DNA of 64,000 bases. Source: Mobula hypostoma (Eukaryota). The notes beneath the pieces were generated by a model that was given only the letters and a program-made list of their open reading frames with translations, searched no databases and was not told the DNA's origin. How positions within the stretch are numbered: position 1 is the stretch's first letter; every line of letters starts with the position of its first letter. Below, piece by piece: positions 29,537 to 64,000 of this stretch. Both the position numbers and the translations under genes were made by a program. Location: the NCBI RefSeq assembly GCF_963921235.1, contig NC_086097.1, forward strand, positions 141,486,001 to 141,550,000. The letters run 5' to 3'.

Positions 29537-29900
29537 ACATAGAAACATAGAAAATAGGTGCAGGAGTAGGCCATTCAGCCCTTCGAGCCTGCACCGCCAT
29601 TTATTATGATCATGGCTGATCATCCAATTCAGAACCCCACCCCAGCCTTCCCTCCATACCCCCTGACCCCCGTAGCCACAAGGGCCATATCTAACTCCCT
29701 CTTAAATATAGCCAATGAACTGGCCTCAACAGTTTCCTGTGGCAGAGAATTCCACAGATTCACCACTGTCTGTGTGAAGAAGTTTTTCCTAATCTCGGTC
29801 CTAAAAGGCTTCCCCTCTATCCTCAAACTGTGACCCCTCGTTCTGGACTTCCCCAACATCGGGAACAATCTTCCTGCATCTAGCCTGTCCAATCCCTTTA
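29537..29900 (-). mobile_element. Young CR1 3' fragment, nearly identical to the 3' end of the 42326-45921 element
   Basis: ORF 29629..29892 is almost the same as the end of ORF 42421..43149; same CATAGAAA tail repeat. Confidence 0.9.
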
Positions 29901-29984
29901 GTTAGACATGACTTGCTACACACAAAATAATGTTGACAATCCCTAATCAGTCCCTGTTAATCCAAATACTGTATACTTTAATAC

Positions 29985-31617
29985 CTGCACAATGAACCAG
30001 AATTGATTAGAGACCTTAAGGTAAAAGAACCATTAGGGGGAAGTGATCATATATGATCAAATTCACCCTGAAATTTGTGAAGTCTGATGTATCAGTAATA
30101 CAGTGGAGTAAAGGGAATTAGAGAGGCATGAGAGAGGAGTTGGCCAGAGTTGATTGGGAAAGAACACTGGCAGGGATGATGGCAGAGCAGCAATGGCTGC
30201 AATTTCTGGAAGCAATTCGGAAAGCACATGATATATACATGCCAAAGAGAAAGAAACATTAAAATGAAAGATGACACAACCATGGCTAACAAGAGAAGTC
30301 AGAGCCAACATAAAACCAAAGAGGAGGCATATAATAGAGCTAAAATTAGTGGGAAGTTAGAGGATTGGGAAACTTTTAAAAATGAACAGAAGACAACTGA
30401 AAAGTCATTAAGAAGGTAAAGATGAAGTATGAAAGTAAGCTAGCCAATAATATTAGAGAGGATACCAAAAGTTTCTGCAGATACATAAAGTGTGAAAGAG
30501 AGGCAAGTGTGGATATTGGACTGCTGGAAAACAATGCTGGAGAGGTAGTAATGGGGGAACAACAAAGTGACAGACAACCTGAACAAGTATTTTGCATCAG
30601 TCTTCACTGCAAAAGACACTAGAAGTATGGTGGAAGATCCAGGTGTCAGGGGGCATGAAGTGTGTGAAGTTACCATAACTAGAAAGAAGATTCTTGGGAA
30701 ACTGAAAGGACTGAAGGTAGATAAGTCACCTGGACCAGATGGTGTCTACCCTAGAGTTCTGAAAGAGATGGCTGAAGAGATTGTTGAGGCATTAGTAGTG
30801 ATCTTTCAAGAATCACTAGGTTTTGGAACGGTTCCAGAAGACTGGAAAATTGCAAATGTCATTCCACTCTTTAAGAAGAGAGAGAGGCAGAAGAAAGGAA
30901 ACATTGGCCAGTTAGTCTGACCTCAGTGATTGGGAAGATGTTGGAGTCAATTATTCAGGATGAGGTCTCAGGGTACTTGGAGGTACATGATCAAATAGGC
31001 CATAGTCAGCATGGTTTCCTCCAGGGAAAATCTTGCCTGACAAATCTGTTGGAATCCTTTGAAGAATTAACAAGCAGGATAGACAAAGGAGAATCAGTTG
31101 ATGTTATGTACTTGGATTTTCAGAAGGTGCCCCACACGAAGCAGCTTAATAAGCTACGAGCCCATGGTATTACAGGAAAGATTCTAGCATGGATAAAACT
31201 GTGGCTGATTGACAGGAGGCAAAGAATGGGAATAAAGGGAGCCTTTTCTGGCTGGCTGCCAGTGACTAGTGGTGTTCCACAGGGCTCTGTCGGGAGTTAT
31301 TCTTTTTACATTACTTGTCAATGATTTGGATGATGGAATTGATGGCTTTGTTGAAAGGTTTGTGGACGATATGAAGATACGTGGAGGTACAGGTAGTTTT
31401 GAGGAAGTAGGGAGGCTACAGAAGGACTTGGATACATTAGGAGAATGGGCAAGGAAATGGCAGATGGAATACAGTGTAGGAAAGTATATGGTCATGCACT
31501 TTGATAGAAGAAATGGAAGGGTTGGCTATTTTCTAAATGGAGAGAAAATACAAAATCCTAAGATGCAAAGGGACTTGGGAATCCTTGTGCAGGATTCCAT
31601 AAAGGTTAATTTGCAGG
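29985..31617 (+). mobile_element. CR1 ORF2 fragment, frameshifted
   Basis: [32 protein letters not shown] motifs across ORFs 30422-31766. Confidence 0.85.
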
Positions 31618-31895
31618 TTACATGCCTCCTGCAGCTTAGGGGTGACTACTTCCTTGCAGCTTCTATCTATCACCTCCTCAGTCACCTGTATGAGTTGAAG
31701 GTTATCAATCTGCAGCTGCAGCTCCTTAACACAGTCTGCAGCTCGGTGCACTTTGTGAAGATGTAGTTATTAGGGAGTCTAGAGGTCTCCTGAAGTTTCC
31801 ACATCTCATGTAAGGAATATACCACTAACCCTGCACCCATTCTCAGTTCACTTGCTATGGACTAACAAAACAAAAGCTTACTGGAAACTTAATTA

Positions 31896-35266: not shown

Positions 35267-37455
35267 TATAGATATAGAATAGAACAGCACAGTACAGGCC
35301 CTTCAGCCCACAATGTTGTGCCGACCCTCAAACCCTGCCTTCCATATAAGCCCCCACCTTAGATTCCTCCATAAACCTGTCTAGTAGTCTCTTAAACTTC
35401 ACTGGTGTATCTGCCTCCACCACTGACTCAGGCAGTGCATTCCACGCACCAACCACTCTCTGAGTAAAAAACCTTCCTCTAATATCCCCCTTGAACTTCC
35501 CACCCCTTACCTTAAAGCCATGTCCCCTTGTATTGAGCAGTGATGCCCTGGGGAAGAGGCGCTGGCTATCCACTCTATCTATTCCTCTTATTATCTTGTA
35601 CACCTCTATCATGTCTCCTCTCACCCTCCTTCTCTCCAAAGAGTAAAGCCCTAGCTCCCTTAATCACTGATCATAATGCATACTTTCTAAACCAGGCAGC
35701 ATCCTGGTAAATCTCCTCTGTACCCTTTCCAATGCTTCCACATCCTTCCTATAGTGAGGTGACCAGAACTGGACACAATACTGCAAGTGTGGCCTAACCA
35801 GAGTTTTATAGAGCTGCATCATTACATCAAGACTCTTAAACTCTATCCCTCGACTTATGAAAGCTAACACCCCATAAGCTTTCTTAACTACCCTATCCAC
35901 CTGTGAGGCAACTTTCAGGGATCTGTGGACATGTACCCCGAGATCCCTCTGCTCCTCCACACTACCAAGTATCCTGCCATTTATTTTGTACTCTGCCTTG
36001 GAGTTTGTCCTTCCAAAGTGTACCACCTCACACTTCTCCGGGTTGAACTCCATCTGCCACTTCTCAGCCCACTTCTGCATCCTATCAATGTCTCTCTGCA
36101 ATCTTTGACAATCCTCTACACTATCTACAACACCACCAACCTTTGTGTCGTCTGCAAACTTGCCAACCCACCCTTCTACCGCCACATCCAGGTCATTAAT
36201 AAAAATCACGAAAAGTAGAGGTCCCAGAACAGATCCTTGTGGGACACCACTAGTCACAATCCTCCAATCTGAATGTACTCCCTCCACCACCACCCTCTGC
36301 CTTCTGCAGGCAAGCCAATTCTGAATCCACCTGGCCAAACTTCCCTGGATCCCATGCCTTCTAACTTTCTGAATAAGCCTACCGTGTGGAACCTTGTCAA
36401 ATGCCTTACTAAAATCCATATAGATCACATCCACTGCACTACCCTCATCTATATGCCTGGTCACCTCCTCAAAGAACTCTATCAGGCTTGTTAGACACAA
36501 TCTGCCCTTCACAAAGCCATGCTGACTGTCCCTGATCAGACCATGATTCTCTAAATGCCTATAGATCCTATCTCTAAGAATCTTTTCCAACAGCTTTCCC
36601 ACCACAGACATAAGGCTCACTGGTCTATAATTACCTGGACTATCCCTACTACCTTTTTTGAACAAGGGAACAACATTCGCCTCCCTCCGATCCTCCGGTA
36701 CCATTCCTGTGGACAATGAGGACATAAAGATCCTAGCCAGAGGCTCAGCAATCTCTTCTCTCGCCTCATGGAGCAGCCTGGGGAATATTCCGTCAGGCCC
36801 CGGGGACTTATCTGTCCTAATGTATTTTACCAACTCCAACACCTCCTCTCCCTTAATATCAGCATGCTCCAGAACATCAACCTCACTCATATTGTCCTCA
36901 CCATCATCAAGTTCCCTCTCATTGGTGAACACCGAAGAGAAGTATTCATTGAGGACCTCGCTCACTTCCACAGCCTCCAGGCACATCTTCCCACCTTTAT
37001 CTCTAATTGGTCCTACCTTCACTCCTGTCATCCTTTTTTTCTTCACATAATTGAAGAATGCCTTGGGGTTTTCCTTTACCTAACTTGCCAAGGCCTTCTC
37101 ATGCCCCCTTCTTGCTCTTCTCAGCCCCTTCTTAAGCTCCTTTCTTGCTTCCCCATATTCCTCAATAGACCCATCTGATCCTTGCTTCCTAATCCTCATG
37201 TATGCTGCCTTCTTCCAGCTGACTAGATTTTCCACCTCACTTGTCACCCATGGTTCCTTCACTCTACCATTCTTTATTTTCCTCACCGGGACAAATTTAT
37301 CCCTTATATCCCGCAAGAGATCTCTAAACATCGACCACATGTCCATAGTACATTTCCCTGCAAAAACATCATCCCAATTCACACCCGCAAGTTCTAGCCT
37401 TATAGCCTCATAATTTGCCTTTCCCCAATTAAAAATTTTCCTGTCCTCTTTGATT
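35267..37455 (-). mobile_element. 5'-truncated, relatively young CR1 LINE
   Basis: ORFs 37080..37382, 35664..37046 and 35328..35639 share one frame, separated by two stops. Full RT motifs ([14 protein letters not shown]). 7-bp TSD CCACTGA at 35260-35266 and 37456-37462. Confidence 0.93.
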
Positions 37456-41282: not shown

Positions 41283-42094
41283 TTAGTTTGTATTTGCTTC
41301 ATTTTGTGTAGACAGGTCTTGAGAATTAGAATCAAAGGCATCTAGGGCTTCACCTTGAGCAGAAAAACTTTCAGTGGTGGAATCAGGGACCTCACTAGGA
41401 GCAGAAATATTTTGGGTACCAGCTTTAGGATCTTCACTAGGGGGAGGTAAGTTTTGAACAGTTGAGTCAGAGGCTTCACCAGGAATGGATACATCTCTTG
41501 TGCTGTCTTTAGGAACAGATATATCTTCTGTGGTGGAATCAGGAGTATTACCAGGAATGTTACTGGCATTAGGGGCTTCACTAGAGACAGACACATCATG
41601 AGTAGTAGAATCAGGGTCTTCAACGAATATGGATACATCTGGGACGTGCAAAGTTGGGACTTCATCAGGAACTATTAATTCTTGGGTACTGGTTTCAGGA
41701 ACTTCAGCAAGAGTAGTTCCATCTGCTGTGCCAGCATCAGGGACTTGAGCAGGAGATGCTACATCTTCTGTGCCAATATCAGGTATTTCAACAGGAGCAG
41801 GTATGTCACTGGTGCTGATAACAGAGTCTTCACCAAGAACATTAACATCTCTTGTATCAGAATCAAGATCTTCAATTGTTGCAGATGCAGTTATGGTGTT
41901 AAAATCAGCAAATTCATCAGGAACAGATATATCTTGGGTCTCAGATGCAATCTTACTATCAGATATGTTTATCTCTTGCTCATCAGTGGGAGCTTCCGTG
42001 TCCACAAATTCAGGAGGTTCAATAGCAGTAGTACTAGGTGCATTTGAAGGGGAATCTGATAGTAAAGCTGTACTGGAAATAGTTAGTCCCTCAT
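41283..42094 (-). CDS. NME8: Putative terminal exon of the NME8-like gene: 270-aa acidic S/T/P-rich 14-aa repeat tail
   Basis: Acceptor TTACTTATAATTACAG|ATGAGG. Phase matches the phase-1 donor at 53395 (G|AT = Asp). 812 nt open frame in non-TE sequence. Linkage inferred. Confidence 0.65.
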
Positions 42095-42325
42095 CTGTAA
42101 TTATAAGTAAACATAACAATTACACTTGGAACTAAAATGACACAGTTGTAATAGTTTATTTAATAATTTCATTTATTTATCATGCAGTGAGCTTCATTGT
42201 ATATCACAAAATACTTGTCTTACTACTTCAAGTTGTTTCTCTTAACTTTCTAACACTTATTTTACTGTAATCAGAATTGAACCTTGTACTTTTGTTTAGT
42301 AGTTGATTTTGAGTTTGAGATTTGA

Positions 42326-45300
42326 GAAACATAGAAACATAGAAAATAGGTGCAGGAGTAGGCCATTCGGCCCTTCGAGCCTGCACCGCCATTTATTATG
42401 ATCATGGCTGATCATCCAACTCAGAACCCAGCCTTCCCTCCATACCCCCTGACCCCTGTAGCCACAAGGGCCATATCTAACTTCCTTTTAAACATAGCTA
42501 ATGAACTGGCCTCAACAGTTTGCTGTGGCAGAGAATTCCACAGATTCACCACTCTCTGTGTGAAGAAGTTTTTCCTAACCTCGGTCCTAAAAGGCTTCCC
42601 CTCTATCCTCAAACTGTGACCCCTCGTTCTAGACCTCCCCAACATCGGGAACAATCTTCCCGCATCTAGCCTGTCCAATCCCTTTAGGATCTTATATGTT
42701 TCAATCAGATCCCCCCTCAATCTTCTAAATTCCAACGAGTACAAGCCCAGTTCATCCAGTCTTTCTTCATATGAAAGACCTGCCATCCCAGGAATCAATC
42801 TGGTGAACCTTCTTTGTACTCCCTCTATGGCAAAGATGTCCTTCCTCAGATTAGGGGACCAAAACTGCACACAATACTCCAGGTGTGGTCTCACCAAGGC
42901 CTTGTACAACTGCAGTAGTACCTCCCTGCTCCTGTACTCGAATCCTCTCGCTATAAATGCCAGCATACCGTTCGCCTTTTTCACCGCCTGCTGTACCTGC
43001 ATGCCCACTTTCAATGACTGGTGTATAATGACACCCAGGTCTCGTTGCACCTCCCCTTTTCCTAATCGGCCACCATTCAGATAATAATCTGTTTTCCTAT
43101 TTTTGCCACCAAAGTGGATAACTTCACATTTATCCACATTAAATTGCATCTGCTATGAGTTTGCCCACTCACCCAACCTATCCAAGTCACCCTGCATCCT
43201 CTTAGCATCCTCCTCACTGCTAACACTGCCACCCAGCTTCGTGTCATCCGCAAACTTGGAGATGCTGCATTTAATTCCCTCATCCAAGTCATTAATATAT
43301 ATTGTAAACAACTGGGGTCCCAGCACTGAGCCTTGCGGTACCCCACTAGTCACCGCCTGCCATTCTGAAAAGGTCCCGTTTATTCCCACTCTTTGCTTCC
43401 TGTCTGCTAACCAATTCTCCACCCACACCAATACCTTACCCCCAATACCGTGTGCTTTAAGTTTGCACACTAATCTCCTGTGTGGGACCTTGTCAAAAGC
43501 CTTTTGAAAATCCAAATATACCACATCCACTGGTTCTCCCCTATCCACTCTACTAGTTACATCCTCAAAAAATTCTATGAGATTCGTCAGACATGATTTT
43601 CCTTTCACAAATCCATGCTGACTTTGTCCGATCATTTCACCGCTTTCCAAATGTGCTGTTATCACATCCTTGATAACTGACTCCAGCAGTTTCCCCACCA
43701 CCGACGTTAGGCTAACCGGCCTATAATTCCCCGGTTTCTCTCTCCCTCCTTTTTTAAAAAGTGGAGTTACATTAGCCACCCTCCAATCCTCAGGAACTAG
43801 TCCAGAATCTAACGAGTTTTGAAAAATTATCACTAATGCATCCACTATTTCTTGGGCCACTTCCTTAAGCACTCTGGGATGCAGACCATCTGGCCCTGGG
43901 GATTTATCTGCCTTCAATCCCTTCAATTTACCTAACACCACTTCCCTACTAACATGTATTTCGCTCAGTTCCTCCATCTCACTGGACCCTCTGTCCCTTA
44001 CTATTTCTGGAAGATTATTTATGTCCTCCTTAGTGAAGACAGAACCAAAGTAATTATTCAATTGGTCTGCCATGTCCTTGCTCCCCATAATCAATTCACC
44101 TGTTTCTGTTTGCAGGGGACCTACATTTGTCTTTATCAGTCTTTTCCTTTTTACATATCTATAAAAGCTTTTACAGTCCGTTTTTATGTTCTCTGCCAGT
44201 TTTCTCTCATAATCTTTTTTCCCCTTCCTAATTAAGCCCTTTGTCCTCCTCTGCTGAACTCTGAATTTCTCCCAGTCCTCAGGTGAGCCACTTTCTCTGG
44301 CTAATTTGTATGCTACTTCTTTGGAATTGATACTATCCCTAATTTCTCTTGTCAGCCACGGGTGCACTACCTTCCTTGATTTATTCTTTTGCCAAACTGG
44401 GATGAACAATTGTTGTAGTTCATCCATGCAACCTTTAAATGCCTGCCATTGCATATCCACCGTCAATCCTTGAAGTGTCATTTGCCAGTCTATCTTAGCT
44501 AATTCACGTCTCATACCTTCAAAGTTACCCCTCTTTAAGTTCAGAACCTTTGTTTCTGAATTAACTACGTCACTCTCCATGTTAATGAAGAATTCCACCA
44601 TATTATGGTCACTCTTACCCAAGGGGCCTCTCACGACAAGATCGCTGATGAACCCTTCCTCATTGCTCAAAACCCAGTCCAGAATAGCCTGCTCTCTAGT
44701 CGGTTCCTCGACATGTTGGTTCAAAAAACCATCCCACATACATTCCAAGAAATCCTCTTCCTCAGCACCTTTACCAATTTGGTTCACCCAGTCTACATGT
44801 AGATTGAAGTCACCCATTATAACTGCTGTTCCTTTATTGCACACATTTCTAATTTCCTGTTTAATACCATCTCCGACCTCACTGCTACTGTTAGGTGGCC
44901 TGTACACAACTCCCACCAGCGTCTTCTGCCCCTTAGTGTTACGCAGCTCTACCCATATCGATTCCACATCTTCCCGGCTTATGTCCTTCCTTTCTATTGC
45001 GTTAATCTCTTTTTTAACCAGCAATGCCACCCCACCTCCCCTTCCTTCATGTCTATCCCTCCTGAATATTGAATATCCCTGAACGTTGAGCTCCCATCCC
45101 TGGTCACCCTGGAGCCATGTCTCTGTGATCCCAACTATATCATAATCATTAATAACAATCTGCACTTTCAATTCATCCACCTTATTACGAATGCTCCTTG
45201 CATTGACACATAAAGCCTTCAGGCGCTCTTTTACAACTCTCTTAGCCCTTTTTAATGCTTGCCCTGGATTTGTCGGCCTGCCACTTTTATTTTTCCCCTT

Positions 45301-45921
45301 TGTACTTTTTGCTTCTACGCTCACTTTACACCCCTCTGTCTCTCTGCACTGGTTCCCATCCCTCTGTTGTGAACTAACCTCCTCACACCTAGCCACTTTA
45401 ATTTGATTCCCACCCCCCAACCATTCTAGTTTAAAGTCACCTCAGTAGCCCCCGCTAATCTCCCTGCCAGGATATTGGTCCCCCTAGGATTTAAGTGTAA
45501 CCCGTCCTTTTTGTACAGGTCACACCTGCGCCAAAAGAGGTCCCAATGATCCAAAAACTTGAATCCCTGCCCCCTGCTCCAATCCCTCAGCCACGCATTT
45601 ATCCTCCACCTCATCGCATTCCTACTCTCACTGTCGCGTGGCACAGGCAGTAATCCCGAGATTACTACCTTTGCGGTCCTTTTTCTCAACTCCCTTCCTA
45701 GCTCCCTATATTCTTCTTTCAGGACCTCATCCCTTTTCCTACCTATGTCATTGGTACCTATATGTACCAGGACCTCTGGCTCTTCACCCTCCCACTTCAG
45801 GATATCTTGGACACGATCAGAAATATCCCGGACCCTGGCACCAGGGAGGCAAACTACCATCCGAGTCTCTGGACTGCGTCCACAGAATCGCCTATCTGAC
45901 CCCCTTACTATCGAGTCCCCT
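42326..45921 (-). mobile_element. Young CR1 LINE: ORF1 SGNH esterase part + essentially complete ORF2 (APE endonuclease + RT)
   Basis: ORF1 GDSIVRG, GTND, DGLH. ORF2 NARS, ITETW, YRPP, GDFN, SDH, QGSVLGP, FADD. Only lesion seen in ORF2 is one in-frame TAG at 43153-43155. CATAGAAA tail repeat. Confidence 0.95.
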
Positions 45922-46019: not shown

Positions 46020-48178
46020 TATAACAAATTATTGTCCTTGAAGATTATGGAATTGAAAAACTTAGTGACTTAATCAATGGCATTTATGAGACTGGAATAA
46101 TACCAGAAGAGATGAAAAAATCAGTATTCATCACTCTTCCTAAGAAACTTGGAGCAATAGAATGTGAATTACATAGGACCATAAGTTTAAAACCATATAA
46201 CCATATAACAATTACAGCACAGAAACAGGCCATCTCGGCCCTTCTAGTCTGTGTCGAACTCTTACTCTCACTTAGTCCCACCAACCTGCATTCAGCCCAT
46301 AACCCTCCATTCCTTTCCTGTCCATATAGCTGTCCAGTTTAACTTTAAACAACAACGTCGAACCTGCCTCAACCACTTCTGCTGGAAGCTCGTTCCACAC
46401 AGCTACCACTCTCTGAGTAAAAAAGTTCGGCCTCATGTTACCCATAAACTTTTGCCCTTTAACTCTCAACTCATGTCCTCTTGTTTCAATCTCCCCCACT
46501 CTCAATGGAAAAAGCTTATCCATGTCAACTCTGTCTATTTCCCTCATAATTTTAAATACCTCTATCACGTCCCCTCTCAACCTTCTACATTCCAAAGAAT
46601 AAAGACCCAACTTGTTCAACCTTTCTCTGTAACTTAGGTGATGAAATCCAGGTAACATTCTAGTAAATCTTCTCTGTACTCTCTCCATTTTGCTGACATC
46701 CTTCCTATAATTTGGTGACCAAAACTGTACACAATACTCCAAACTTGGCCTCACCAATGCCTTGTACAATTTTAACATTACATCCCAACACCTATACTCA
46801 ATGCTCTGATTTATAAAGGCGAGCAAACCAAAAGCTTTCTTCACCAACCTATCCACATGAGATTCCACCTTCAGTGAACTATGTACCAATATTCCTAGAT
46901 CCCTCTGTTCTACTGCATTCTTCAAAGAGTCATATCACCAAGATTCTTCTAAGAATTTTGATGATGAGCTAAAAGTAAGATACAAGCTGAAATAGGTAAA
47001 GAACAATGTGATTTTGTGAAAGACAAAGGTACAAGAAACGCAATATTGATGTTAAGGATACAATCAGAACGAGCTATTCAAGTGCAAAAAGATTTGTTTG
47101 TTTTATTGACTACACAAAAGCATTTGATAAAGTGAAGCACAATAAATTGTTTGAAATATTACAGAAAACTCTAGATCTAGATTTGAAAGACCTCCGCCTA
47201 ATCAGAAATCTGTACTGGGAACAAACTGCTGCTATAACAATAGATGGAGAAGTGAGTCAGTTTACGAAAATCAAGAGAGGCATTAGACAAGGGTATGTTT
47301 TCTCCCCTGATATACTTAATGTGTACAGTGAAATAATATTACAAAAAATAAGAGACATCTTGGGAATCAAAGTTGGCAGTGAAAACAACAATAATTTCAG
47401 ATATGCAGATGACACTGCAAGTACGCAGTGCAAGTACGGAGGAAGAACTACAAAACTTAATTGATGTAGTTGTTGAAGAAAGTGCAAAAATGGGTCTATC
47501 TATCAATTGCAAAAAGACAGAATGTATGGTGATATCAAAAAAGGAGAAACCTATCTGCAGGCTGAGAATAAATGGGGAAGATATAAAACAAGTACAGAAC
47601 TTTTGCTACTTAGGAAGCTGGGTGAGATCAGATGGCAGGTGCGACATGGACATCAAAAGAAGAATAGGGATGGCAAAGACACCTTTACAAGATTGAAGAG
47701 CATACTGACCAATACTAAACTAGGCATGACGACCCACCTCAGAGTACTGAAATGTTACGTTTATCCAGTTATGTTATATAGCTCAGAATGTTGGACAATA
47801 TCTTGTAATATGAGGAAAGGAATTCAAGCAGCAGAGATGTGGCTTTTGAAGAGGATGCAAAGAATATTATGGATGAAATGAATATCTAACGAGGACGTCA
47901 TGAACAGAGCAAACACAAAAAGAGAAATAATGTTGAGATCATGAAAAGGCAACGTAACTTCATTGGACATGTGATTAGGAAAGAGGAGTTAGAATGCACT
48001 GTAATTATGGGAAAGATTGAAGGGATGAAAGCAAGAGGAAGACAAAGACAAATGATGATGGAGACAGCAGCCAGAGAACTGGAAATAAATACCAATGAAT
48101 TGATCCACTTGACCCGAAACAGGAGTGTGTGGGCCATAGCAGTCAAAGCTCAAACTGGGCATGGCACCTGATGATGAT
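46020..48178 (+). mobile_element. RTE-clade LINE, 5'-truncated, interrupted by a CR1
   Basis: SVFITLPKK..AIECELHRTISL, GIRQGYVFSP, RYADD, FCYLGS motifs; (TGA)n tail at ~48170. Confidence 0.85.
46191..46925 (-). mobile_element. CR1 3' fragment inserted in the RTE element
   Basis: Open ORF 46272..46925 (LEYCVQFWSP); AACCATAT tail repeat; RTE reading resumes after 46925. Confidence 0.9.
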
Positions 48179-62924: not shown

Positions 62925-64000
62925 ACTATAAGACCATAAGATATAGCAGCAGAATAGGCCATTTGACCCATCGAGTCTATCCAACATTTCATCATGGCTG
63001 ATCCAATTTTCCTCTCAGCCCTAATCTTCTGCCTTCTCCCCACATCCCTTCATACCCTGACCAATCAAGAATCCATCAAACTTTGACTTAAATATGCATA
63101 AAGACTTGGATTTGACTGCTGCCTGTGGCAAAGAATTCCACAGATTCTCTACTCTCTGGCTAAAGAAATTCCTCCTCATCTCTGTTATAAAAGGATGCCC
63201 CTCTATTCTGAAGCTCTGTTCTCTGGTCTTAGATTCTTCCACAATAGGAAACATTCTCTCCACATCCACCCTATCAAGGCCTTTCACCAGTCAATTGGTT
63301 TCAATGAAGTCACCCCTCATTCTTCTGAATTCTAGTGAATACAGGTTGCAAGCCATCAACAGTCTTCATATGACAAGCCTTTCAATCCTGGAATGATTTT
63401 TTTGAACCTTCTTCAGTTTTAGCACATCCTTTCAAAGATAACGGGCCCAAACCTGCTCACGATACTCCAAATGTGGCCTTGCCAGTGCTTTATAAAGTTT
63501 CAACATTATATCCTTGCTTTTATATTCTAGTCCTCTTGAAATGATTGCTAGCATTGCATTTTCCTTCCTCACCACAGACTCAACCTGCAAATTAACCTTT
63601 AGGAAATCCTGCACAAGGACTCCCTCAGCCCTTTGCACCTCAGTTTTTTGTATTTTCTCTCCATTTAGAAAATAGACAACCCTTTCATTTCTTCTATCAA
63701 AGTGCATGACCATACATTTCTTAACACTGTATTCCAACTGCCATTTCTTTGCCCATTCTCCTAATCTGTTGATGTCCCTCTGTAGCCTCTCTACTTCCCC
63801 AGAACTACCTGCCCATCACCTATCTTCATATCGTCTGCAAACTTTGCAACAAAGCCATAAATTCCATCATCCAAATCATTGACATAAAAAGAATTGGTCC
63901 CACCACAGACCCCTGTGGAGCATCACTAGTCACCTCTTTCAGAACTCTGGGTGTACACCATCTGGTCCAGGTGACTTATCTACCTTCAGACCTTTCAGTT
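62925..64000 (-). mobile_element. CR1 LINE running to the window edge
   Basis: ORFs 63021..63287 and 63432..63737; CATAAGA tail repeat; FADD region near 63835. Confidence 0.88.

What the first reader, a model, noticed from the sequence alone, without database searches (positions are those of the whole stretch)
45340..45445. Candidate programmed -1 ribosomal frameshift joining CR1 ORF1 (esterase) to ORF2 (endonuclease-RT)
Seen: on the - strand ORF1 ends GAG GTG ACT TTA AAC TAG, placing a correctly phased X_XXY_YYZ heptamer U_UUA_AAC (45435-45429) directly before its stop. Slipping -1 gives TTT AAA CTA GAA TGG TTG GGG GGT GGG AAT CAA, which is exactly the ORF2 frame (the track's ORF starts at the TTG, 45420). 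That frame is closed by TGA three codons upstream, so the overlap is only ~5 codons and centres on the heptamer. ORF2 has no AUG until ~200 residues in (VIMGDFN), inside the endonuclease. A G-rich tract GGTTGGGGGGTGGG starts 6 nt after the heptamer, the usual spacing for a stimulator. Established: U_UUA_AAC is the coronavirus-type slippery site, and mammalian L1 ORF2 is translated by termination-reinitiation instead. Inference: this CR1 family may make an ORF1-ORF2 fusion in gag-pol fashion. I cannot say whether this has already been reported for CR1.
Basis: partly seen in the sequence, partly recalled or inferred. Interest (0 to 1): 0.85.

Follow-up and report, generated by a model that had tools for sequence, protein, structure and literature searches.

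The report
Conserved frameshift site in CR1 retrotransposons
In this ray genome and in bird- and reptile-type relatives, the jumping gene CR1 ends its first gene with the same seven-letter slippery sequence plus a stop, followed ten letters later by five G's, with the second gene continuing one base back, so ribosomes likely slip back one base to make a fused protein, an untested answer to how a very common vertebrate mobile element makes its copying enzyme.

Summary
Observation confirmed. A dead, 5'-truncated copy of a very young ray CR1 LINE (45921-42325, minus strand) ends ORF1 (SGNH esterase) with U_UUA_AAC-stop. ORF2 (endonuclease-RT) is in the -1 frame, and its first AUG is codon 207.

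The site is conserved at the nucleotide level. It is the modal sequence in 14 of 15 lineages found without using it, down to about 20-30% ORF1 identity (bird/reptile-type). Invariance starts exactly at the heptamer's first base. All 13 distinct modal linker lengths keep the -1 frame. A GGGGG run sits at a fixed 10-nt spacer in 20 of 20 lineage profiles. No conserved hairpin or G-quadruplex was found. A distant clade often ends in Gly-Asn, which fits G_GGA_AAC (protein evidence only).

Best reading: programmed -1 frameshifting that gives a gag-pol-like ORF1-ORF2 fusion (0.75; untested). Main rival: termination-reinitiation, since 15 of 19 lineages have AUG or a strong near-cognate codon at or just after the stop.

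Ten full-text searches found no report for CR1, but the 1997 CR1 papers were unreadable. A review asserts a -1 shift for Dictyostelium TRE5-A. The scan noted the same site before in a shark genome (e1-8041403).

The parts
42325..45921 (-). 5'-truncated copy of a very young CR1 LINE (esterase-ORF1 type)
   Evidence: 99.4% identical to intact family members L010/L186 over 45921-42325; 877 candidates, 40 scored at about 100% identity
45426..45921 (-). 3' part of ORF1: SGNH/GDSL esterase domain ending Leu-Asn-stop; the N-terminal zinc-finger/coiled-coil part is lost by truncation
   Evidence: Pfam PF13472 E 3.4e-16; ORF1 profile matches ZfL2-1 esterase 4c1b at E 3.4e-45; intact ORF1 is 311 aa in L010
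45429..45435 (-). Slippery heptamer U_UUA_AAC in X_XXY_YYZ phase
   Evidence: conserved
45426..45428 (-). ORF1 stop (TAG) directly 3' of the heptamer; TAA and TGA occur in other lineages
45442..45444 (-). TGA closing the -1 frame upstream, which limits the ORF overlap to about 5 codons
45409..45418 (-). G run at fixed spacing (+11 to +15 GGGGG, then GGG at +18 to +20); candidate stimulator (inferred)
   Evidence: G at +11..+15 in 20 of 20 lineage profiles, +19 in 20 of 20
45205..45428 (-). Variable linker read open in the -1 frame from the heptamer to the endonuclease start (Asn of NARS at 45204)
42421..45435 (-). ORF2 in the -1 frame: APE endonuclease plus RT, 1004 codons from the heptamer in an intact relative; first AUG at 44817; broken in this copy by a nonsense codon at 43155-43153
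42325..42420 (-). 3' UTR ending in a short tandem repeat tail (TTTCTATG units)

Best explanation
The CR1 ORF1/ORF2 junction carries a conserved U_UUA_AAC heptamer, an adjacent stop and a GGGGG run at a fixed 10-nt spacer, and is likely a programmed -1 ribosomal frameshift site that would join the ORF1 esterase protein to the endonuclease-reverse transcriptase as a gag-pol-like fusion of about 1,310 residues. Shown: the sequence anatomy, its conservation at codon level, and the open -1 frame. Inferred from established -1 PRF mechanics: a ribosome with tRNA-Leu on UUA and tRNA-Asn on AAC pauses, both tRNAs re-pair one base back, and decoding continues in ORF2; most ribosomes stop at the adjacent codon and release free ORF1p, which would set a high ORF1p:fusion ratio. 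Inferred and weaker: the pause comes from the unstructured G run at the mRNA entry channel, probably bound by a protein or contacting the ribosome (like the PRRSV C-rich motif 11 nt 3' of its shift site), helped by the stop codon. The binding partner is unknown.
For: (1) Boundaries. In 20 lineage profiles, bases -7 to -4 are 20/20 invariant and -3 to -1 are 19/20, while -8 and -9 vary (13/20, 15/20). The first T is the wobble base of a codon that changes amino acid across lineages (ACT, AGT, GCT, GAT, GGT, TGT, TCT). (2) Codon choice. TTA is 11% of Leu codons and AAC 34% of Asn codons in these esterases, and equally conserved Leu residues at -22 and -14 use 5 and 3 codons. (3) Copies not fetched by the heptamer pattern: 89 of 104 distinct loci hold the exact heptamer (30/30 young A, 33/34 D/E/G, 16/29 old decayed H, 10/11 metagenome), and it is modal in 14 of 15 such lineages. 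(4) Genome-wide: 19,348 exact sites (control 4); relaxing four synonymous positions gives 21,838 (control 169); relaxing three non-synonymous positions gives 20,755 (control 66). Synonymous variants are thus near the neutral-decay level (about 3.0% vs 2.3% per position), so no abundant lineage uses one. (5) Proteins: 81 of 85 ORF1 homologues with an intact end stop at Leu-Asn, from sharks, rays, coelacanth, frogs, turtles, squamates and birds. Only 2 of 81 have a preceding residue whose codons cannot end in T, against 35 of 81 one position earlier. (6) Frame: modal heptamer-to-endonuclease distances of 117, 147, 150, 159, 162, 189, 201, 231, 240, 270, 285, 330 and 339 nt are all multiples of three and open in intact copies, although the linkers differ in sequence. 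(7) In the old H lineage the -1 frame usually opens only one codon before the heptamer, so ORF2 can only be entered at or after it. (8) A distant unnamed clade ends Gly-Asn in 13 of 29 proteins, mostly after Gln (10 of 13), which fits G_GGA_AAC; 14 of 29 ends are heptamer-compatible against a 3.0% background. (9) A naturally frameshifted member of another distant clade shows Phe-Lys-Leu running open into the endonuclease (P0160). (10) U_UUA_AAC and G_GGA_AAC are named among the most shift-prone heptamers for mammalian ribosomes (PMC5009743 passage).
Against: No experimental evidence. No significant fold downstream in the window copy (z from -0.28 to +0.20 in five windows) and no shared hairpin or G-quadruplex across 13 elements; classic -1 PRF needs a structure, and pseudoknots could not be predicted. 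15 of 19 lineages have AUG, UUG, GUG or CUG in the ORF2 frame at codons 3-6, five of them AUG, which is what reinitiation would need. 15 of 29 proteins of the distant clade do not end in a heptamer-compatible triplet, and its DNA could not be seen. One of 11 metagenome loci lacks the heptamer (L099), and a truncated one has TTTTAAC (L096). Lineage F is split 8 vs 7 of 20 between 339 and 338 nt, although only 339-nt copies are open. Five of the 20 lineage groups were first found through the heptamer pattern, and the codon table used heptamer-bearing copies only. Lineages are related, so the counts are not independent trials.
Confidence: 0.75

Rival explanations
1. Termination-reinitiation: ribosomes stop at the ORF1 stop and restart in the ORF2 frame at an AUG or near-cognate codon a few bases on, as for SART1 (UAAUG) and, AUG-independently, L1. 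The heptamer and G run would be cis-signals for retaining the ribosome. It could also run alongside frameshifting.
For: 15 of 19 lineages have AUG/UUG/GUG/CUG at ORF2 codons 3-6. AUG lies 2 nt after the stop in L092, L094, L097 and L100, and L110 has TAATG. SART1 and L1 precedents (passages of PMC3894237, PMC2881922, PMC1965478). No structured stimulator was found.
Against: It does not explain why invariance begins exactly at the first base of a canonical X_XXY_YYZ heptamer, or the fixed TTA/AAC codons, or the Gly-Asn ends of the distant clade. The start codon's identity and position vary (codon 3, 4, 5 or 6). D, H, L103 and L106 have only AAG/AGG there. Codon 6 must end in G because of the G run, which raises the chance of a near-cognate codon.
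Confidence: 0.15
2. The conserved bases are a protein-level constraint: ORF1p needs a C-terminal Leu-Asn, and ORF2p starts with FKL...GxG by some other route.
For: 81 of 85 ORF1 proteins end in Leu-Asn. The -1 frame peptide FKL-x-x-x-G-x-G is recognisable from rays to birds.
Against: Synonymous positions are fixed: TTA, AAC, the wobble T before them, and GGG at ORF2 codon 7 in 20 of 20, while GGG is 66 of 198 other Gly codons. Double coding would itself require the -1 frame to be read through the heptamer. The crystallised ZfL2-1 esterase chain ends about two profile positions before Leu-Asn.
Confidence: 0.03
3. A nucleic-acid signal for a separate ORF2 message: an internal promoter (TTTAAA plus a GT/GA-box-like G run), a splice acceptor, or transcriptional slippage that joins the frames.
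For: TTTAAA is palindromic and TATA-like, and the G run resembles Sp/KLF-type boxes and hnRNP F/H sites (recalled, not tested).
Against: A transcript starting downstream would have no AUG until codon 207, inside the endonuclease. The AG of a splice acceptor is not kept (TAA and TGA lineages). The frame is held open from the heptamer itself. The runs are only three bases long, short for polymerase slippage (own knowledge).
Confidence: 0.07

Closest known systems
Canonical vertebrate CR1 LINEs with esterase ORF1 (CR1 subgroup 7 / type IVB in PMC4120745; Canonical-CR1 in PMC13343379)
   Same: zf/lz + SGNH esterase ORF1, APE + RT ORF2, short-repeat 3' tail, 5' truncation.
   Different: Neither paper's main text contains the word frameshift; how ORF2 is translated is not addressed in the passages seen.
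Dictyostelium TRE5-A / TRE3-A (APE-type non-LTR elements)
   Same: A review figure legend states both require a -1 frameshift for ORF2 translation (PMC5911963 passage).
   Different: A different clade and ORF1. The primary paper was not held, so its evidence and shift site were not seen. No esterase and no G-run element are described in the passage.
Coronavirus (IBV-type) U_UUA_AAC -1 PRF and retroviral/LTR gag-pol frameshifts
   Same: Same heptamer, short -1 overlap, upstream assembly protein joined to a polymerase (PMC5009743 passages).
   Different: No conserved pseudoknot or hairpin detected here. The 0-frame stop directly follows the heptamer. The host is a non-LTR element.
PRRSV nsp2 -2/-1 PRF (CCCANCUCC bound by nsp1beta/PCBP)
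   Same: A short unstructured sequence motif at a fixed distance (11 nt 3' of the shift site there, starting at +11 here) (PMC5009743 passage).
   Different: G-rich rather than C-rich; no binding protein is known here; the likeness is spacing only.
SART1 UAAUG coupling and L1 ORF2 AUG-independent reinitiation
   Same: Bicistronic LINE RNA in which ORF2 depends on ORF1 translation.
   Different: The window's family has no AUG near the stop. Its ORFs overlap in -1 phase on an invariant slippery heptamer.

Membership tests
CR1 LINE (esterase-ORF1 type) | SGNH esterase ORF1 with N-terminal Cys motif | tested here: met
   paired CxxC motifs in the intact ORF1 of L010
CR1 LINE (esterase-ORF1 type) | ORF2 with APE endonuclease then RT | tested here: met
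   PF03372, PF14529, PF00078
CR1 LINE (esterase-ORF1 type) | Short tandem-repeat 3' tail and 5' truncation | tested here: met
CR1 LINE (esterase-ORF1 type) | RT phylogeny within CR1 rather than L2 | not tested
   No RT tree with references was built; assignment rests on ORF1 similarity to bird, turtle and squamate elements
Programmed -1 ribosomal frameshift site | X_XXY_YYZ heptamer in the phase of the upstream ORF | tested here: met
Programmed -1 ribosomal frameshift site | Downstream ORF in the -1 frame, open from the heptamer, without its own conserved start | tested here: met
   AUG present in 5 of 19 lineages at codons 4-5 but not conserved
Programmed -1 ribosomal frameshift site | Heptamer conserved at synonymous positions across divergent lineages | tested here: met
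Programmed -1 ribosomal frameshift site | Stimulatory RNA structure 5-9 nt downstream | tested here: not met
   No significant or shared hairpin; pseudoknots not predictable with these tools; a fixed-spacing G run is conserved instead
Programmed -1 ribosomal frameshift site | Measured frameshifting or transframe peptide | not testable with these tools
   Needs reporter, ribosome profiling or proteomics
G-quadruplex-stimulated frameshift | Conserved G4-forming sequence just 3' of the site | tested here: not met
   A two-tier G4 at +7 was predicted in the window, L186 and L192, and one at +11 in L097; 9 of 13 elements had none there
Termination-reinitiation (SART1-type) | AUG overlapping or adjacent to the ORF1 stop | tested here: not met
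   Absent in the window's family; present in 5 of 19 lineages
Termination-reinitiation (L1-type, AUG-independent) | ORF2 initiation at any sense codon after ORF1 termination | not testable with these tools
   Near-cognate codons are common after the stop; needs a reporter

The most novel reading that the evidence does not exclude
Esterase-type CR1 LINEs from sharks to birds make their endonuclease-RT only as an ORF1-ORF2 fusion through -1 frameshifting kept since the jawed-vertebrate ancestor. The shift is driven by a new kind of structure-free stimulator, a G5 run at an exact 10-nt spacer read by a trans-acting protein (possibly ORF1p itself, giving feedback control), and distant relatives use the same design with a swapped heptamer (G_GGA_AAC).
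Probability: 0.35. Interest if true: 0.92.

Novelty: new variant of a known kind. Interest (0 to 1): 0.78.

Why it matters
CR1 is the dominant retrotransposon in most vertebrate species (abstract opening of the PMC13343379 listing). How LINEs translate ORF2 is described as an open question (PMC3894237 passage), with reinitiation as the working model. A gag-pol-like fusion would tie the RT and endonuclease covalently to a self-associating, lipid-binding ORF1 protein (properties from PMC3905857 passages) and set the ORF1p:ORF2p ratio. It would also change where ORF2 is annotated to begin and how CR1 retrotransposition assays must be built. An unstructured G run at fixed spacing would be a new class of frameshift stimulator. 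A single dual-reporter experiment tests the whole idea.

Tried and rejected
Structures: the window's downstream RNA folds no better than shuffles. Thirteen elements share no hairpin; bird-type L092 and L103 have local hairpins that rays lack. G-quadruplex is not conserved. A duplex scan of the G run against up to 4.7 kb downstream found no partner at a homologous place. An upstream C-rich stretch about 420 nt 5' (the CLPG codons) recurred among the top hits in 6 of 13 elements, but its Leu codon is CTC in only 14 of 19 lineages: a weak lead only.

An apparent counter-example, lineage F with out-of-frame linkers in two copies, resolved to a 339-nt in-frame mode. Four old copies with TTTAAGC share no other change and do not group in a tree, so they are independent decay.

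A search for long fused ORF1-ORF2 proteins returned 5 hits among 8000 scored, apparently spliced bird gene models; this is weak evidence either way. Viral contigs gave nothing. Prokaryote genomes gave one short contaminant-like hit. No RNA holder was on record, and laying four guessed-RNA contig sets was uninformative. One search was a badly aimed pattern and was not used.

DNA around coelacanth, frog, turtle and Gly-Asn-clade proteins could not be obtained, so those groups rest on protein ends only. Of 185 loci, 143 had an ORF1-end hit and 136 had enough 3' sequence; only 11 of 59 metagenome/prokaryote loci were usable.

Literature: ten searches listed no paper proposing frameshifting for CR1. 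Haas 1997, Kajikawa 1997, Kapitonov and Jurka 2003, a look-up meant for the 2005 chicken repeat paper, and the TRE5-A primary paper were not held. Supplements were not read.

Full report
Observation. ORF1 is an SGNH esterase and the -1 frame encodes APE endonuclease and RT. The first ORF2 AUG is codon 207, after the NARS and ETWL motifs. The copy spans 45921-42325, is 99.4% identical to intact relatives, lacks the 5' part of ORF1 and has a nonsense codon at 43155. The genome is 3.48 Gb, and the best ORF1 hit is a Mobula hypostoma protein at 98%, so the host is most likely a mobulid ray. All 30 young copies fetched share the junction.

Conservation in proteins. Of 85 ORF1 homologues with an intact end, 81 stop at Leu-Asn, including coelacanth, frog, turtle, snake, lizard and hummingbird proteins. 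The residue before Leu varies over ten amino acids, but only 2 of 81 are residues whose codons cannot end in T; one position earlier, 35 of 81 are. That is the footprint of a fixed T in a wobble position.

Conservation in DNA. I located ORF1 ends with queries lacking the last eight residues. Among 104 distinct loci not fetched by the heptamer pattern, 89 hold it exactly; 13 of the 15 misses are in an old lineage whose copies differ from their column majority by 8.6%. It is modal in 14 of 15 unbiased lineages. Ray and bird-type lineages share only about 20-30% ORF1 identity. In 20 lineage profiles (five first found via the pattern) invariance starts at the heptamer's first base, and all three stop codons occur after it. 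TTA is 11% of Leu and AAC 34% of Asn codons in these ORFs. Genome-wide there are 19,348 exact sites against 4 in the control. Allowing synonymous changes adds about 3.0% per position and non-synonymous changes about 2.3%, so variants look like decay and not like alternative lineages.

Frame. The linker from heptamer to endonuclease differs in length and sequence between lineages. Its 13 distinct modal lengths (117-339 nt) are all multiples of three and open in intact copies. One lineage even carries a duplicated endonuclease start and keeps the frame. The -1 frame is typically closed 1-5 codons upstream of the heptamer. A linker that was not translated from the heptamer would have no reason to behave this way.

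The 3' element. ORF2 codon 7 is always GGG, while GGG is 66 of 198 other Gly codons. No significant or shared hairpin, G-quadruplex or long-range partner was found; pseudoknots could not be modelled. The spacing matches the protein-bound PRRSV motif 11 nt 3' of its shift site (PMC5009743 passage). I therefore infer a sequence-specific, probably protein-bound stimulator. This step is the least supported.

Distant relatives. An unnamed clade at about 30% identity ends in Gly-Asn in 13 of 29 proteins, mostly after Gln, as G_GGA_AAC would give; background compatibility is 3.0%. Fifteen of the 29 do not fit, and no DNA was available. Another distant clade ends Leu-Asn, and a frameshifted member shows Phe-Lys-Leu running open into the endonuclease.

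Evidence against. Fifteen of 19 lineages have AUG, UUG, GUG or CUG at ORF2 codons 3-6, five have AUG, and one has the SART1-like UAAUG. Reinitiation is the accepted route for SART1 and L1 (passages), and it may operate here, alone or in parallel. But the codon's identity and position wander, four lineages have only AAG/AGG there, and reinitiation does not predict a canonical slippery heptamer fixed to the base. Nothing here measures translation.

Prior knowledge. I saw passages only (word finds) of PMC5009743, PMC4255032, PMC4120745, PMC2734521, PMC5911963, PMC3894237, PMC1965478, PMC2881922, PMC11835228, PMC13343379, PMC3905857 and PMC3747384; only the first 300,000 characters of PMC5009743 and PMC11835228 are held, and no supplements were read. 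In the frameshifting review, the non-LTR passages found discuss HeT-A, TART and mammalian LINEs, not CR1. The 2026 vertebrate CR1 survey has no occurrence of frameshift, overlap or start codon in its main text. A review states a -1 frameshift for Dictyostelium TRE5-A and TRE3-A. Ten searches listed no CR1 frameshift paper. The 1997 descriptions of chicken and turtle CR1 were not held. I recall, unverified, that the turtle ORFs were described as overlapping by 22 bp, which equals the five-codon-plus-heptamer overlap common here, so an early passing suggestion is quite possible.

Verdict. The feature is real and deeply conserved. Programmed -1 frameshifting is the best explanation (0.75), reinitiation the main rival (0.15). 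It is a new variant of a known kind: a known recoding mechanism in a dominant vertebrate LINE, with an apparently structure-free stimulator. Interest 0.78.

Noticed in passing
window 41283-42135 (minus strand): A 278-codon open frame rich in Ser/Thr/Asp/Glu/Pro lies just 3' of the CR1 insertion; possibly a host exon.
   Followed up: no
L056 and L194-L213 (lineage F): The linker carries a duplicated, abortive endonuclease start at codon about 51 before the true start at codon 114, kept in frame.
   Followed up: partly
L159, L169, L171, L173, L184 (lineage G): The G run just 5' of the heptamer has gained bases in single copies, putting ORF1 in frame with ORF2; probably homopolymer errors.
   Followed up: partly
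P0118 and P0121-P0148: Unnamed distant esterase-ORF1 clade ending Gly-Asn (13 of 29) or with Gly-Phe-Phe/Leu near the end, suggesting other slippery heptamers; DNA not seen.
   Followed up: partly
about 420 nt 5' of the heptamer (window near 45850): The CLPG codons read TGC CTC CC in 14 of 19 lineages and can pair weakly with the G run.
   Followed up: partly
P0021; L149: CR1 ORF1 sequences sit in records labelled Pseudomonas aeruginosa and Providencia alcalifaciens, most likely vertebrate contamination.
   Followed up: no
window 29537-29901, 35346-37454, 29985-31619, 46281-46907, 63030-63848 and others: Many older LINE ORF2 fragments, including a 94% identical 3' fragment of the same family at 29901-29537.
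   Followed up: no
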